Assembly (NCBI RefSeq): GCF_009914755.1
Contig: NC_060929.1
DNA from: the human T2T-CHM13v2.0 reference genome, Homo sapiens
Direction: 5' to 3' (one strand)
DNA: 64,000 bases
Numbering within the stretch: the stretch's first letter is position 1; each line of letters begins with the position of its first letter. Positions 30,401 to 45,001 of this stretch are shown here, piece after piece. The notes beneath the pieces were generated by a model. That model saw nothing but the letters and a program-made list of their open reading frames with translations, did no database searches and was not told the DNA's origin. A program made the translations under genes and the position numbers.

Positions 30401-31326
30401 GGGACATCACCACTATTGTGAAGTGTAGCATAAACATCTTGGAGAGACACTTTGTCTACTTCAGCAAAGACAAAAGAAAGTGGTGACAGCACACACCTGA
30501 AGCTGACTCTTCTCTTTCCAGAGCACACACCCCAACTCTGCTCCTTCCTCCTGAGGGTCTAACGCAGTATTTCCTACTGTTGGGGAAAGTAAACTCGATC
30601 AAATGACTCAGGCCCTAGATGTTGGATGGCCAGGATGTGGCATAACCCCTCCACAGCTGGCGTTGCCCGGGGCAATAGCAAGGGGACTGTGAGGTGATGC
30701 CGCCAGTTGGGGCCAAAAATATTACGGGCATGTGTGCATGGGCACTCTCCAAGTACTGCACACCAAACTTGTAAATGCCCCATGCCTAGATGCAGCCAGA
30801 TGTCCAAACAGCTGACACACAGATGGATTTCTGTATTATATTCTCAGCCTGAACGTCAGAAGGGCGGGAGGCACAGAGCTGGTGTGCTTGCCTGTCAGGC
30901 CGCCATCACGTATCTCTGTCATCTCCAGCCTTGGATTCATTTACACACACATTCAAAAGTCCTAACCAAAGAGTTCTTCATGCCCATGACTCTGAGGCAT
31001 TACATGTAGATACAGGGAGACCAGACCATTCTCCACCTGCCTCTTATGTTTCTGCACATCTTGCCGGGAGAGGCACTGACTGCTTTTTGTTCCAGATCAT
31101 GTTTTCAAGGCTATCTGCATAGCAAAGCACCTTACAGCGCACAGAAATTGTCTCCCTGCAGAGCAGAGGGCGGGTCTACTTCCTGCCAGGATAATAAAGA
31201 TAATGTTTTCCTTCCATGTGACACGGCAGGCGAATCACATTTTTCGATACCAAAAATTTTATGCAAATGAAATCTATTAGCCACAAGCAGTAATTCCTGG
31301 TAAAAGTTTCTTAAGGGTAAAGATAA

Positions 31327-31629
<303 letters not shown>

Positions 31630-31863
31630 ACCAATTATTTTTTTACATCACTCCAGTCATGTTGGTGTGGTGAGACACCTAGGTAAGGCTTAGTGTTTAT
31701 CAAACACGTCTAAATCGGTGTGCTATGATTATGCAAGTTACAGACAGTGTTGTAGACACAGTCAGTATATCCACTGAATTCCTTGAACAGGTCGTCACAA
31801 GCACTATTTCGTGACTTTTTATGTTTCTAAGTTTTATGTCATTGCTTTTGCCCTGCTTTCTAA

Positions 31864-32250
<387 letters not shown>

Positions 32251-32278
32251 TAAAACAATCTTTCCATCAATAAAAAGC

Positions 32279-32981
32279 TCAATTATTTTTCAAATACCCA
32301 CTGCAACAATTAATCCAAAGCCTCACTGCTGAGCTCTGCTCAGTGATCCCAGCTCTGTGCGCAGCTGGGAAGCAGGGAAATCCTTCTAAGGCTATGGAAT
32401 TAAATGGGAGCTGGAGTGAGTTTGGGAAGGACAAGAATTTTCCACACGAGCATGGTCGTTAGCCAGTGTGGTGAAGCGGCAAGGCCACGAGGCACAGAAA
32501 ACGTGGTTTTTGTGTCGGAACTGTTTTGCACAGTTCGGGGGTGCTGCATATGGTTTCCTAGAACTAAGCAGTTACTTTCCTCATCTCTTTTGTGCATCTC
32601 TTCAGTTCGGGGATGGAGCGTGTAATTTGAGTAAAAAACAATATTGTTAGAAGTAAGTCGCAGACTAGAGACAGACCCCATTTGGGGTAGAAGCTTGCAC
32701 AGAATATAATGGGGAAACTGAGACAGGCCTCATTAACAGAAGAGCTGACGCAAAAACCACGTTTTCTGTGCCTCACGGCCTTGCCACTTCACCCTACCGG
32801 GTAACGATCATGCTGGCGTGGAAAATTCTTGTCCTTCCCGAACTCACTCCAGCTCCTGTTTAATTCCATAGCATCAGGATTTCCCTGCTTCCCAGCTGCG
32901 CACAGAGCTGGAACCAGTGAGCAGAGCTCAGCAGTGAGGCTTTGGATTAATTGTTGCAGTGGGTACTTGAAAAGTAATTGA
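32279..32981. repeat. Long inverted repeat of non-Alu/non-L1 sequence: arms 32279-32516 and 32747-32981, spacer 230 bp
   Basis: Manual alignment of the left arm to the reverse complement of the right arm shows about 19 substitutions plus one small indel block over ~237 bp (about 90% identity). Perfect runs of 48 bp and 36 bp. Confidence 0.97.
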
Positions 32982-33379
32982 TTTCCATACTCAGTTTGAA
33001 CTCAATTGAAAAATCATTTATAGACTTCACTTTATGGGTGAGACGCAGAGCCAAGTACAGTGGGTTCCAGGCCACAACAGCTGAACGGAGGAGGCAGCGC
33101 GGCCCCTGCCCAATTGCGACCTATGTCAAATAATAAAAATAATAATAATAATAAGTATTATTCTCTGAATTATATTACTAACAAATTAAATGCCTTATTG
33201 AGTTGGCACACGATAGCAATAATACGTTTTGTCTCACTTCCCTGTAAAAATCGGTCCGTGTTTTTGTAAGATCCTTAAAAGCAATGCTAACCGGCACTCA
33301 CATTTCAGTACTAGGCTGAGATTTCTACCAGTTTTCTTAAAACGGATCACTGAGTAGAACCCATGAGCTATTTGGGAAG

Positions 33380-34700
33380 ACATCGCTGCAACCTCACAGT
33401 CCCCCTGCAAAGGCAGAGGCCTCAGGTGAGGCGGGGCGCGGGGTGACTGGAACCCGAGTTTTCAGCGAGGACTCGCTCTTCCTCTGCACTAAGTTCTATG
33501 AGCAGTGGCGGCAGGTGCGTCTCCGGAGATTCCCCTGCCATAGACCAGCCGTCCAGTGACCACAGCGGACGCCCTGGCCTCTCCCTGCTTCTCCCAAGCC
33601 CGTGGCTTCTCCCTGACTTGGCTTCCCCATGGGAATGCTCTGACCTCCGGCCTGCGGCCGTTTCTTCTTCTCCATCTTCAGTTGCTGGTGCTCCTGGGTG
33701 GACTCTTCGGAGGGCTCTTTGAAGGCCACCCAGGAGCACCTTTCTCTCGCCCTGCAGGCATCCCCAAGTCCCATCGCAGCACCCGCTTCCTTGGCTGGGA
33801 ATCCTTCTCAGGAAAAGCTCGGTGTCTGTTTGTTTGTTTTTCCAGCTTCAGTCCACTCCCGAGGCGTTGGGTCCCCTCCCCTCTGGAGACGGCGCCCGCG
33901 CGGCTGCCCAGGCTGCAGGGCCTGGGGACACTCCGGGACCCTCCTGCCCTGAGGACCCTGCGCCAGGAGGGCGCCCCTTTTACCCCCAGGGCGACCGGTG
34001 CTGTGCTGCCACCTAGGGGCCGCTCTACGCACTGCAGGTCAGCCGGGCCCGCAGTCCCCAGGTGCTAACAATCTGGTTTCTGCTGTTCTTTTGTTGTTCA
34101 ATTTTTTATTTTAATTTTTGTGGATACATAGTAGAAGCATATATTTATGGGGTACATGAGATGCTTTTATCCAGGCATGCAATGTGTTCTAATCACATGA
34201 AAAATGGGGAACCCGTCCCCTCAAGTATCCATCCTTTGTGTTACAAACAATCCAGTTACACTCTTTTTAGTTATTTAAAAATGTACACTTGAATTATTCT
34301 TGACTATAGCCACCCTGCTGTGCCAGCAAACACTACATCTTATTCAACGCTAACAATCTGGGCTGTCAAAAGGAGAAGGGTTGCTGTAGCGGAGGGGCTT
34401 AGAGGTGAGCATTTGTTTGTCTCACCCTTCCCCCTGCAGAGCGGTGCCTGTTCTTACAGCCATTTGTAAATGCTGGCCTTGAGCCACACCAAGCATCCAG
34501 GTAGAGCTGGGAGCTTCACCCATAGGCTGGGAGCACCGTGAGGGGGACCTGCAGTCCAGGACGGCCACGGTGGTGCAGGGAGGCCCCGCACTGCGGGAGG
34601 AGCTGGTCATGACCCAGGGCCAGCACCAGAGTGGCTACCCAGGGCGCCAGGCACCCATAGGACTGGGAAAGCCAGGAGAGGCCAGAGAGGGGAAGGGAAT
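33380..34700. promoter_or_regulatory. CpG-island-like GC-rich region (core ~33400-34063), split by an L1 fragment
   Basis: High GC and dense CpG (gcggggcgcgggg, ggcgcccgcgcggc, gccgggcccgc) against a CpG-poor background. Upstream gcagcgcggcccctgcccaat (CCAAT) near 33094-33113. Confidence 0.7.
34077..34348 (-). mobile_element. 5'-truncated L1 (L1MA/L1PB-like) 3' end with perfect 13-bp TSD
   Basis: T-rich tail, then ttttgtggatacatagtag..atatttatggggtacatgag. TSD gctaacaatctgg at 34064-34076 and 34349-34361. Confidence 0.85.
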
Positions 34701-34809
34701 TGGCAACTTCTAAAAGAAATGCGAGAAAGAGCCTGGGAAGTACCAGAAGGAAGAAAGTCGTCCCTGGGGCTTGAGGCATAGAGAGAACTATGTCTCGAGT
34801 AAACCAAAG

Positions 34810-35294
34810 GTGTTTCCATGGTACCTGGAATTTTTTTTTAAGTCAGGGATGATGGGACTCACAGACACAGAAAGATTGTCATGAAGAAAGAAGTTTATCC
34901 TTGCAGATCCCTGGACAGAGGAGTCACGCCTGGCCACACAGAGACGCACAGCCAACCAGGTGGGCAAGGGAGCGAGGGGAGCGTGGGCCAGAGAAGGCTC
35001 AGATCAGCTAACCTGAATCATTGAATCATTTTAGCAGGCTCAGGGGCGAGGGGCTGTCCCTTCCTGTCTGGTCCCTGGCCTGGCGTGATTTGGGCAGGTG
35101 CATGGTGGCCCGGAGTGTGAGGGCCACAGAGAAGGTGGTTGGAGCATGGACTCCAGGTGGTTGGTTTGATTTGGAAAGCACAGCCCTGGGTTCTAAGAAC
35201 CAGCTCATTCTGGCAAGGGCAGTACCTCCAGGGTCAGCAAGACCCCAGATGTCCAAGCACCAGAATTCAGAAAATAAAAGAATTCATTAATACA
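34810..35294 (-). mobile_element. ERVL-class LTR (MER74/MER73-like)
   Basis: Reverse strand begins tgtattaatgaattcttttattttctgaattctggtgcttggacatctggggtcttgctgaccctggagg. Left boundary approximate. Confidence 0.6.
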
Positions 35295-36270
35295 AAAGAC
35301 AACATGCAGCCATTGCTCAGAAGCACTGCCTGGGGCCCAGGCTGCCGGCCTCTTGTTGCCCAGGTCTCTGTGCCCAGTGTTCAGCAGCAGACACTTGTGG
35401 AATTGGCTTTTGAGAAGCAAGGGGCTGGGCTTTGAAGAATGAATGCCAAAGGTTGAATCCCAAGGCAAGACATACTGCCGCTGGACAGGAGGAGATGCCT
35501 GCATCTGCTCAGAAGTTCACACCTAAGGAGGGTTTCAAGCGTTCCAAGATAACAAAAAGTGCTCCCCAAAATAAGACTTACCATAAATAACAGATGAACA
35601 AAATAATCAATCGAAAAGTCTGTCCCATGTCCAACAGTAGTCCAGATGCTGGGGTAGGGGATCCAAAAGAAGGGGGAGGATGTCACTGACTGCCACCTCC
35701 ATTCAGCTGCCCAGGTTAGAGGTAAGTTAACACAAACACAGAAACTTAAGAGTAACAGAGACTGAATCCGGAATATTTGTATCTCTTTCTCCACATGGCA
35801 ACTCAAGCCATTTTATACAATAATATTTATGTATAGATCCAAACCTTCATGGCAGCATGCACATGCTGGACTCTGGAAACAGTTTTATAAGGAGTCAGAA
35901 TTCCCAGCCGTTGTCCAAGGTCCAAGATTCCTGCATTTTCCTCATTCTAGTGTTTCAGAGAGTGGACAAAAAGAGCATCATTTACTTAACCTTCCCATTT
36001 TATTTGGCATTGGATTATTTCCTGTTTTCATGATTACAAAAACTTCTGCACTCATTATGTCCATATGTATATTTTGTACTCAAATATGTACACAAACATA
36101 TAAGTATTATATAGGTACTACAGGTATTATGTATTCTAACAGTATTTATAATCATGAATGTGTGTATATATTAGAGATATTAGCTTATGGGAATGAGCAA
36201 CTATAAGAACATTTTCCTGAAATGAAATTGTTCTCTCCAGCAGCAGTTATTCTGAATGCTTCTTCCTTGC

Positions 36271-36690
36271 AGAGTCCTCTCCTCCACTGGGTACTCACGG
36301 GTCCCTCCTCCCTCCAGAGTCCTCTCCTCCACTGGGTACTCACGGGTCCCTCCTCCCTCCAGAGTCCTCTCCTCCACTGGGTACTCACGGGTCCCTCCTC
36401 CCTCCAGAGTCCTCTCCTCCACTGGGTACTCACGGGTCCCTCCTCCCTCCAGAGTCCTCTCCTCCACTGGGTACTCACGGGTCCACCCTCCCTCCAGAGT
36501 CCTCTCCAGCACTGGGTACTCACAAGTCCACCCTCCCTCCAGAGTCCTCCCCAGCAGTAGATACTCATGAGTCTTCCCTCCATCCAGAGTCCTCTCCAGC
36601 ACTGAGTACTCATGAGTCCACTTTTCCTGCAGAGTCATAGGTACCTCCAGCTGTAGGTACTCAGGAGTCCATCCTCCCTCCAGAGGCTTT
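36271..36690. repeat. 45-bp minisatellite (VNTR), about 9 copies
   Basis: Unit agagtcctctcctccactgggtactcacgggtccctcctccctcc at 36271, 36316, 36361, 36406 (identical), then progressively diverged copies at 36451-36676. Confidence 0.95.
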
Positions 36691-43990: not shown

Positions 43991-44293
<303 letters not shown>

Positions 44294-44693: not shown

Positions 44694-45001
44694 TTTTTTT
44701 TTTTTTTTTTCGGACAGGGTCTCACTTTGTTGCCCGGGCTAGAGTACAGTGCTGTGATCTCGGCTGCTCACTGCAGCCTCGACTCCCCGAGCAGGTGATC
44801 CTCCTACCTCAGCCTCCCAAGTAGCTAGAACTACAGGCATGTGCCTCTGTGCCTGGCTAATTTTATTTTTTTGTATTTTTTTGTAGAGACTGGGTTTCAC
44901 CATGTTGCCCAGTCTGGTCTTGAACTCCTGGGCTCAAGCAATCTACCTGGCTCAGCCTCCCAAAGTGCTGGGCTTACAGGTGAGAGCCACTCTGCCCGGC
45001 C
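44694..45001 (-). mobile_element. AluJ with TSD
   Basis: Reverse Alu with J-type ctcctgggctcaagcaatc. TSD aca(a/g)atacatttct. Confidence 0.9.

What the first reader, a model, noticed from the sequence alone, without database searches (positions are those of the whole stretch)
32279..32981. Long inverted repeat of apparently unique sequence: candidate long-hairpin RNA (endo-siRNA/dsRNA) or cruciform locus
Seen: arms 32279-32516 and 32747-32981 are reverse complements at about 90% identity (about 19 substitutions plus one small indel block by my count, with perfect runs of 48 and 36 bp) around a 230-bp spacer. The arms do not resemble Alu, L1, LTR or MITE consensuses that I recognise, and I see no convincing TSD. 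Both arms keep several CpGs (acgt, tcgtt, gcgc) in an otherwise CpG-depleted window. Known: ~240-bp duplexes are substrates for ADAR, Dicer and PKR, and closely spaced inverted repeats are unstable in genomes and can be homogenised by gene conversion. Inference: a local inverted duplication that has been retained and could yield a hairpin RNA if transcribed from the adjacent CpG island. Caveat: mismatches rescued as G:U are about balanced between strands (7 plus, 8 minus), so the sequence alone shows no strand-specific RNA-structure selection.
Basis: partly seen in the sequence, partly recalled or inferred. Interest (0 to 1): 0.85.

Follow-up and report, generated by a model that had tools for sequence, protein, structure and literature searches.

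The report
Single-copy inverted duplication, likely neutral
A 238-base stretch of unique human DNA was copied in reverse next to itself tens of millions of years ago and has since decayed like neutral sequence; whether it is ever transcribed into a hairpin RNA could not be tested.

Summary
The inverted repeat is real. Arms 32279-32516 and 32747-32981 align over 238 columns with 214 matches, 21 substitutions and one 3-nt indel, around a 230-nt spacer.

It is not a transposon pair or a MITE. In the 3.1-Gb assembly each arm finds only the two arms, and the spacer and right flank find only themselves. A nearby L1 fragment gave 2495 candidates at 74-84% identity in the same tool, so diverged repeats are detectable. 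There is no convincing target-site duplication, Rfam match, Pfam match or protein-level paralogue.

The differences look neutral:
- 16 transitions and 5 transversions.
- 10 of 21 substitutions fall in 24 CpG-class columns, so CpGs decayed about 8 times faster than other sites rather than being kept.
- G:U rescue is 7 on plus against 9 on minus.

Best reading: a one-off local inverted duplication, about 25-45 Myr old by inference, tolerated because the long spacer and divergence make it stable. It would form a 235-bp imperfect dsRNA if transcribed, but transcription, editing and small RNAs could not be tested. Low interest.

The parts
32279..32516 (.). Left arm of the inverted repeat (238 nt; GC 0.48, 6 CpG)
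   Evidence: only two places in the genome, namely the two arms
32517..32746 (.). Spacer or loop, 230 nt of single-copy sequence (GC 0.44, 4 CpG). It holds a small 6-bp hairpin at 32518-32536 and a weak 26-nt direct repeat at 32531/32603 (73%).
32747..32981 (.). Right arm, the reverse complement of the left arm (235 nt; GC 0.50, 8 CpG)
32383..32385 (.). The only indel between the arms: 3 nt present in the left arm and absent from the right
33150..34080 (.). Neighbouring single-copy GC- and CpG-rich zone, a marginal CpG island and a possible but unannotated promoter. Context only, not part of the repeat.

Best explanation
This is a one-off local inverted duplication of about 238 nt of unique, then CpG-rich, intergenic sequence, placed 230 nt from its source. 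The most likely origin is a replication template switch or a fold-back repair event. Since then the two arms have diverged like neutral, germline-methylated DNA. It persists because a 230-nt spacer and 9% divergence make it a poor substrate for cruciform extrusion and recombination, not because it is selected. It has no demonstrated function. If a transcript crossed it, either strand would fold into a roughly 235-bp imperfect duplex. Shown here: the structure, its single-copy status and the substitution spectrum. Inferred: the mechanism of origin, the age and neutrality.
For: 1. Single locus. The left arm, right arm, spacer, the whole 703 nt and the right flank each find only this locus in the 3.1-Gb assembly, at E up to 10 for the element itself. 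The same tool found 2495 candidates for the L1 3' fragment at window 34086-34346. Forty were scored, at 74-84% identity.
2. No transposon hallmarks. The best flanking direct repeat is TTTCCAT, with its left copy 11 nt outside the arm. 130 of 2000 random placements did as well. The arms contain no tandem sub-repeats.
3. Neutral spectrum. There are 16 transitions and 5 transversions. Ten of 21 substitutions lie in 24 CpG-class columns and 11 in 211 other columns. G:U rescue is 7 plus against 9 minus, binomial p = 0.80.
4. No RNA family or coding signal. The Rfam E-value scan of 31000-35000 gave 8 matches, all in the two Alus and none in the repeat. The arm ORFs have no Pfam match with E below 0.1 and no paralogue at protein level.
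5. The mechanism class is documented. Template switching creates inverted repeats in a single event in primates (PMC10710096, abstract and passages).
6. Stability. Longer spacers and divergence sharply reduce inverted-repeat instability (PMC10164571, abstract and passages).
Against: - No outgroup genome could be consulted, so the arm-less ancestral state, the age and the absence of arm-to-arm conversion are all untested.
- I read no microhomology at either possible pair of junctions. After this much divergence that is uninformative.
- Documented short-range template switches span tens of nucleotides, whereas this copy is 238 nt placed 230 nt away.
- The two long perfect runs together (48 and 34) occurred in only 2.4% of uniform-placement simulations, while the 48-nt run alone occurred in 12.5%. 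This post-hoc hint of uneven divergence could reflect CpG clustering in the inner half, a conversion tract or local constraint.
- The repeat sits beside a CpG-rich, possibly promoter-like zone, so transcription cannot be dismissed.
Confidence: 0.62

Rival explanations
1. Same neutral relic, different birth. A micro-inversion of the roughly 230-nt spacer arose from one staggered break. Filling in the stagger duplicated 238 nt in inverted orientation at the two ends of the inverted segment.
For: The architecture arm / unique segment / inverted arm with sharp boundaries is what the staggered-break inversion model predicts. That model is recalled from Drosophila work and comes from no call. The single-copy status and neutral spectrum fit equally well.
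Against: Nothing in one genome can show the orientation of the spacer in the ancestor. A 238-nt stagger around so small an inversion would be unusual, which is my own judgement rather than a tested result.
Confidence: 0.15
2. A primate-specific hairpin-RNA gene. A transcript, for example from the CpG-rich zone at 33150-34080 running leftwards, spans both arms and folds into a 235-bp duplex that is edited by ADAR and/or diced into endo-siRNAs.
For: Both strands fold into an almost continuous helix with MFE -480 and -461 kcal/mol. With G:U allowed, uninterrupted runs reach 55 bp on plus and 56 bp on minus. A marginal CpG island lies 170-740 nt away. Template-switch hairpins have given rise to human miRNA genes (PMC10710096).
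Against: No gene or transcript is annotated within about 29 kb in the hub's gene table. There is no strand bias in G:U rescue, 7 against 9. CpGs decayed as in methylated, unprotected DNA. No Rfam family matches. No second genomic copy exists that could serve as a trans target, whereas known gene-derived hairpin loci in flies and mouse oocytes have one; that comparison is recalled, and the absence of copies is. In the dsRNAscan preprint most predicted long intergenic dsRNAs are unedited, which its authors attribute to lack of transcription (PMC11838218, section 10).
Confidence: 0.08
3. A non-autonomous DNA transposon (a MITE or foldback-type element with long terminal inverted repeats) from a very low-copy or very old family.
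For: The 703-nt size and roughly 240-nt terminal inverted repeats resemble such elements. A 7-nt direct repeat, TTTCCAT, lies near both ends. It becomes 8 nt with one mismatch if 11 extra nt on the left are counted as part of the element.
Against: No other copy of the arm, spacer or whole element exists in 3.1 Gb, at a sensitivity that recovers 74-84% identical L1 copies. The direct repeat is not flush with the left arm and is matched by chance in 130 of 2000 random placements. A family old enough to be invisible to this search would not keep arms 91% identical without conversion.
Confidence: 0.05
4. An assembly artefact, such as a fold-back chimeric read incorporated into the assembly.
For: Palindromic artefacts do occur in long-read data; this is recalled and comes from no call.
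Against: The arms differ at 21 positions plus an indel, with a mutation spectrum typical of germline evolution. The spacer is 230 nt of unique sequence.
Confidence: 0.01

Closest known systems
Template-switch mutations (TSMs) and fold-back inverted duplications
   Same: They create a reverse-complement copy next to its source in unique sequence in one step, giving a hairpin-capable locus that then accumulates point changes (PMC10710096, passages).
   Different: The TSMs in that paper build miRNA-sized hairpins, whereas here the copy is 238 nt and lies 230 nt away. The ancestral state and any junction microhomology could not be shown.
Predicted non-repetitive intramolecular dsRNAs of the human genome (dsRNAscan catalogue, PMC11838218)
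   Same: An intergenic inverted repeat outside annotated repeats that lies in the terminal 5 Mb of a chromosome arm. The preprint lists 497,429 non-repetitive predictions (4,597 edited plus 492,832 unedited) and reports enrichment at chromosome tips.
   Different: At 235 bp it is much longer than the medians for that class, 75 bp unedited and 144 bp edited. It still falls below the preprint's 'long, highly paired' class of >300 bp and >96% paired, which has 2,018 members. The supplements were closed, so I could not check whether this locus is listed.
hpRNA / endo-siRNA hairpin loci (Drosophila hpRNAs, mouse oocyte hairpin siRNA loci)
   Same: A long inverted repeat with a loop of a few hundred nucleotides that could fold into a Dicer substrate.
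   Different: Those loci are transcribed, yield 21-22-nt RNAs and usually derive from a gene or repeat that they target in trans; this description is recalled. Here no transcript is annotated and no second genomic copy exists.
MITEs and long-TIR DNA transposons
   Same: Overall geometry: about 700 nt with long terminal inverted repeats.
   Different: Single copy, no TSD flush with the ends, and no family members.
Inverted Alu pairs (ADAR-edited dsRNA)
   Same: Similar duplex length of about 240-300 bp and similar pairing percentage.
   Different: The arms are unique sequence. The Alu-derived Rfam hits lie at 31345-31628 and 31970-32249, both on the minus strand and outside the repeat.

Membership tests
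TIR DNA transposon / MITE | Terminal inverted repeats at the element ends | tested here: met
   Arms of 238 and 235 nt at the two ends of a 703-nt unit
TIR DNA transposon / MITE | Target-site duplication flush with both ends | tested here: not met
   With both ends in place no flanking repeat reached the listed top ten, where the shortest entry is 4 nt. The best case, TTTCCAT, needs the left end moved by 11 nt, and 130 of 2000 random placements do as well.
TIR DNA transposon / MITE | Multiple dispersed copies in the genome | tested here: not met
   Only this locus in 3.1 Gb. The L1-fragment control gave 2495 candidates at 74-84% identity. Copies below about 70% identity could be missed, and profile searches were not accepted.
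hpRNA / endo-siRNA locus | Long inverted repeat able to fold into an extended duplex | tested here: met
   MFE -480 and -461 kcal/mol, with no shuffle as stable. 221 (plus) and 223 (minus) of 238 columns pair when G:U is allowed.
hpRNA / endo-siRNA locus | A transcript spanning both arms, and 21-23-nt small RNAs from the stem | not testable with these tools
   No expression data were available. No gene is annotated at the locus in the hub's gene table.
hpRNA / endo-siRNA locus | Homology to a trans target (parent gene or repeat) | tested here: not met
   No other DNA copy. No protein-level paralogue: one search gave the 2 arms plus one hit at E = 7.
Structured RNA under selection | Strand-specific preservation of pairing (G:U bias, compensatory changes) | tested here: not met
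   G:U rescue 7 plus against 9 minus, p = 0.80. Compensatory changes need orthologues, which were not available.
Template-switch / fold-back inverted duplication | Inverted copy adjacent to its source, both in otherwise unique sequence | tested here: met
Template-switch / fold-back inverted duplication | Ancestral allele lacking one arm; microhomology at the switch points | tested here: inconclusive
   No outgroup genomes are held. I read no microhomology at 32278/32279, 32516/32517, 32746/32747 or 32981/32982, but decay since the event could have erased it.
   500-nt windows starting at 33150-33220 pass. The GC-richest block, 33400-34080, has o/e of only 0.53. The window average is 0.22. Marginal.

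The most novel reading that the evidence does not exclude
The locus is a young, primate-born hairpin-RNA gene. A template-switch copy was placed beside an unannotated CpG-rich promoter. It is transcribed in a restricted tissue such as germline, early embryo or brain into a 235-bp duplex. That duplex would feed ADAR or Dicer and would be one of the few non-repeat long hairpin RNAs in human.
Probability: 0.07. Interest if true: 0.55.

Novelty: new member of a known kind. Interest (0 to 1): 0.22.

Why it matters
As it stands it matters little. It is one clean example of how unique-sequence hairpin-capable loci arise and decay in primate genomes. Because its arms are not repeats, it is easy to assay unambiguously in RNA data. 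If transcription across both arms were found, it would be a tractable case of a de novo, non-transposon long dsRNA in human. That would bear on how ADAR, Dicer, PKR and MDA5 handle self dsRNA and on gene birth by template switching.

Tried and rejected
- The supplement list of the dsRNAscan preprint was closed, so I could not see whether this locus is in its tables.
- A profile search of the genome with the two-arm alignment was not accepted. A sequence-only model R1 built from that alignment was not accepted either. Family members below roughly 70% identity therefore remain unexcluded.
- Coding reading rejected. Both arms are open over 62 and 70 codons and the indel is in frame. However, in my reading of those translations, about 9 of the residues covered by both arms differ. 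No Pfam match has E below 0.1, and there is no paralogue.
- Rfam: no match inside the repeat. All 8 matches are Alu-derived SRP, mir-1268 or mir-3135 hits in the two Alus. The 11-nt resemblance of the right end to a mariner MITE terminus that I recalled has the wrong orientation, and no mir-548-type match appeared.
- TSD reading rejected as chance.
- Uneven divergence: 5 substitutions in the outer block against 16 in the inner block, Fisher p = 0.064. The inner half holds most of the CpG sites, so this is not taken as a conversion tract.
- Cruciform in duplex DNA judged unlikely from the spacer-length data in PMC10164571.
- Three of the four paper searches gave papers I read. The hpRNA search returned only invertebrate or general small-RNA papers, and none was read.

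Full report
**Observation**

The sequence at 32279-32981 is an inverted repeat, as described. The repeat finder splits it at an indel into two collinear blocks: 32279-32384 / 32876-32981 (106 nt, 95% complementary) and 32386-32516 / 32747-32877 (131 nt, 88% complementary), with 230 nt between the inner ends.

A global alignment of the left arm with the reverse complement of the right arm has 238 columns. There are 214 matches, 21 substitutions and one 3-nt gap at 32383-32385. The perfect runs are 48, 34 and 24 nt. Adding 40 nt on every side shows that the similarity stops abruptly at all four boundaries.

As RNA, the 703 nt fold into one long helix on either strand. The MFE is -480.4 kcal/mol on plus and -461.3 on minus, and none of 20 shuffles per strand came close (means -215 and -202). 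With G:U allowed, 221 (plus) and 223 (minus) of 238 columns pair, and the longest uninterrupted runs are 55 and 56 bp. In the whole 64-kb window the only other inverted repeat of at least 80 nt with arms within 2 kb is 43991-44088 / 44904-45001 (74% complementary). It overlaps stretches that the hub lists as masked repeats.

**Copy number**

The window lies in a 3.1-Gb, 24-contig assembly that can be searched.
- The left arm finds 2 places, which are the two arms.
- The right arm finds the same 2 places.
- The spacer finds 1 place.
- The whole 703 nt finds only itself at E up to 10.
- The 1104 nt to the right find themselves plus two short matches of 35-43 nt to query positions 139-181, the AAT-rich stretch.

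As a positive control, a 4-kb query to the right of the repeat produced 2495 first-look candidates. Forty were scored, and apart from the self match all align to window 34086-34346 at 74-84% identity. I recognise that stretch as an L1 3' end; the name is recalled, not from a tool. The tool therefore sees dispersed repeats down to the mid-70s in percent identity, and the arms have none.

Profile searches that might reach further were not accepted. A very old family at 60-70% identity cannot be excluded formally. Such a family would not explain arms that are 91% identical.

**Other transposon or gene signatures**
- A scan of flanking direct repeats, shifting either end by up to 12 nt, found TTTCCAT as the best case. 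Its left copy lies 11 nt outside the arm, and 130 of 2000 random placements in the window did as well.
- Tandem Repeats Finder found nothing in the arms or spacer.
- An Rfam E-value scan of 31000-35000 gave 8 matches, all in the two minus-strand Alus to the left.
- Both arms are open in the same frame, 62 aa on plus in the left arm and 70 aa on minus in the right arm, and the indel is in frame.
- Reading those translations myself, about 9 of the residues covered by both arms differ.
- Pfam gives nothing with E below 0.1. A six-frame protein search of the genome finds only the two arms and one hit at E = 7. I take the open frames as chance.

**How the arms have diverged**
- The 21 substitutions comprise 16 transitions and 5 transversions.
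- I assigned CpG-class columns as those that are CpG in either arm, plus one TG/CA pair. Ten substitutions fall in these 24 columns and 11 in the other 211 (5.2%, 95% CI 2.6-9.1%; K2P 0.054). Over all sites K2P is 0.097.
- CpG sites thus changed about eight times faster per site than other sites. At least 12 CpGs were present at the time of duplication, and 6 and 8 remain. This is the usual fate of methylated CpGs, not retention.
- Every transition mismatch is a G:U on exactly one strand. The split is 7 plus to 9 minus, binomial p = 0.80, so there is no sign of selection on an RNA from either strand.
- The outer block is more similar than the inner block, 5 against 16 substitutions (Fisher p = 0.064). 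The inner half carries most of the CpG sites.
- A 48-nt perfect run arises in 12.5% of uniform simulations. The pair of runs, 48 and 34, arises in 2.4%, a post-hoc oddity that I leave open.

**Age (inference)**

I compared K of about 0.054 (non-CpG) to 0.097 (all sites) with recalled human-macaque divergence of about 6-7% and human-marmoset divergence of about 10-12%. On that basis the duplication dates to roughly 25-45 million years ago, in an anthropoid ancestor, provided the arms never converted each other. No primate genome was available to test this.

**Surroundings**
- An Alu in minus orientation (Rfam SRP-type hits at 31970-32249) ends 25 nt to the left of the repeat. It has its own flanking duplication, which I read.
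- To the right lies single-copy sequence with raised CpG. 500-nt windows starting at 33150-33220 pass GC >= 0.5 and o/e >= 0.6. The block 33400-34080 has GC 0.64 and o/e 0.53, against 0.22 for the whole window.
- The hub's gene table shows no gene within about 29 kb.

**Mechanism**

The best-supported account is that a single mutational event copied 238 nt of unique sequence in reverse orientation 230 nt away. Template switching during replication is documented to create inverted repeats in one step in primate genomes, though at shorter range (PMC10710096, abstract and passages). A staggered-break micro-inversion of the spacer would give the same picture and needs an outgroup to tell apart.

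Persistence needs no selection. In yeast, widening the spacer from 12 to 100 bp lowers IR-induced recombination 300-fold, and widening it from 12 to 200 bp lowers gross rearrangements about 20-fold. Divergence lowers instability further (PMC10164571, abstract and passages). For the same reason a cruciform in duplex DNA is unlikely here.

**Comparison with what is known**

A genome-wide prediction of human dsRNAs lists about half a million non-repetitive structures, mostly short (median 75 bp unedited, 144 bp edited) and enriched near chromosome tips. Its 2,018 'long, highly paired' structures (>300 bp, >96% paired) are 88% intergenic and mostly unedited (PMC11838218: passages and section 10).

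At 235 bp and 91% Watson-Crick pairing, this locus is longer than typical non-repeat predictions but outside that special class.

It fails two defining features of MITEs, namely copies and a TSD. It also lacks the trans target typical of gene-derived hairpin siRNA loci. It fits the kind 'local inverted duplication / template-switch product'.

**Verdict**

The unique, non-transposon nature of the repeat is confirmed. The arguments for function, CpG retention and survival of an unstable structure, do not hold. The hairpin-RNA idea remains possible but unsupported, at about 7-8%. Interest is low, and the main value is as a clean, uniquely mappable test locus.

Noticed in passing
window 36270-36685: A minisatellite of 9.1 copies of a 45-nt GC-rich unit (87% matches), about 3.3 kb right of the repeat.
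   Followed up: no
window 33150-34080: A single-copy GC- and CpG-rich block (GC up to 0.68, o/e 0.5-0.7) in a gene desert with no annotated gene. It could be an unannotated promoter or regulatory element.
   Followed up: partly
window 34086-34346: A fragment that I recognise as an L1 3' end, abutting the GC-rich block. It gave 2495 genome candidates at 74-84% identity and served as the sensitivity control.
   Followed up: yes
window 31954-32253: A minus-strand Alu with a poly-T at its left end and a flanking direct repeat (aaaacaat[a/c]tttc), 25 nt left of the inverted repeat. A second minus-strand Alu lies at about 31331-31645.
   Followed up: partly
window 32261-32267 and 32982-32988: A 7-nt direct repeat, TTTCCAT, near both ends of the element. 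It is not flush with the left arm, and 130 of 2000 random placements match as well.
   Followed up: yes
window 32274-32459 (+) and 32792-33001 (-): The same reading frame is open across both arms (62 and 70 aa) and the only indel is 3 nt, but there is no Pfam match or paralogue.
   Followed up: yes
window 32343-32348: Three of the five outer-block differences cluster within 6 nt, between the 48- and 34-nt perfect runs. They could stem from a single complex mutation.
   Followed up: no
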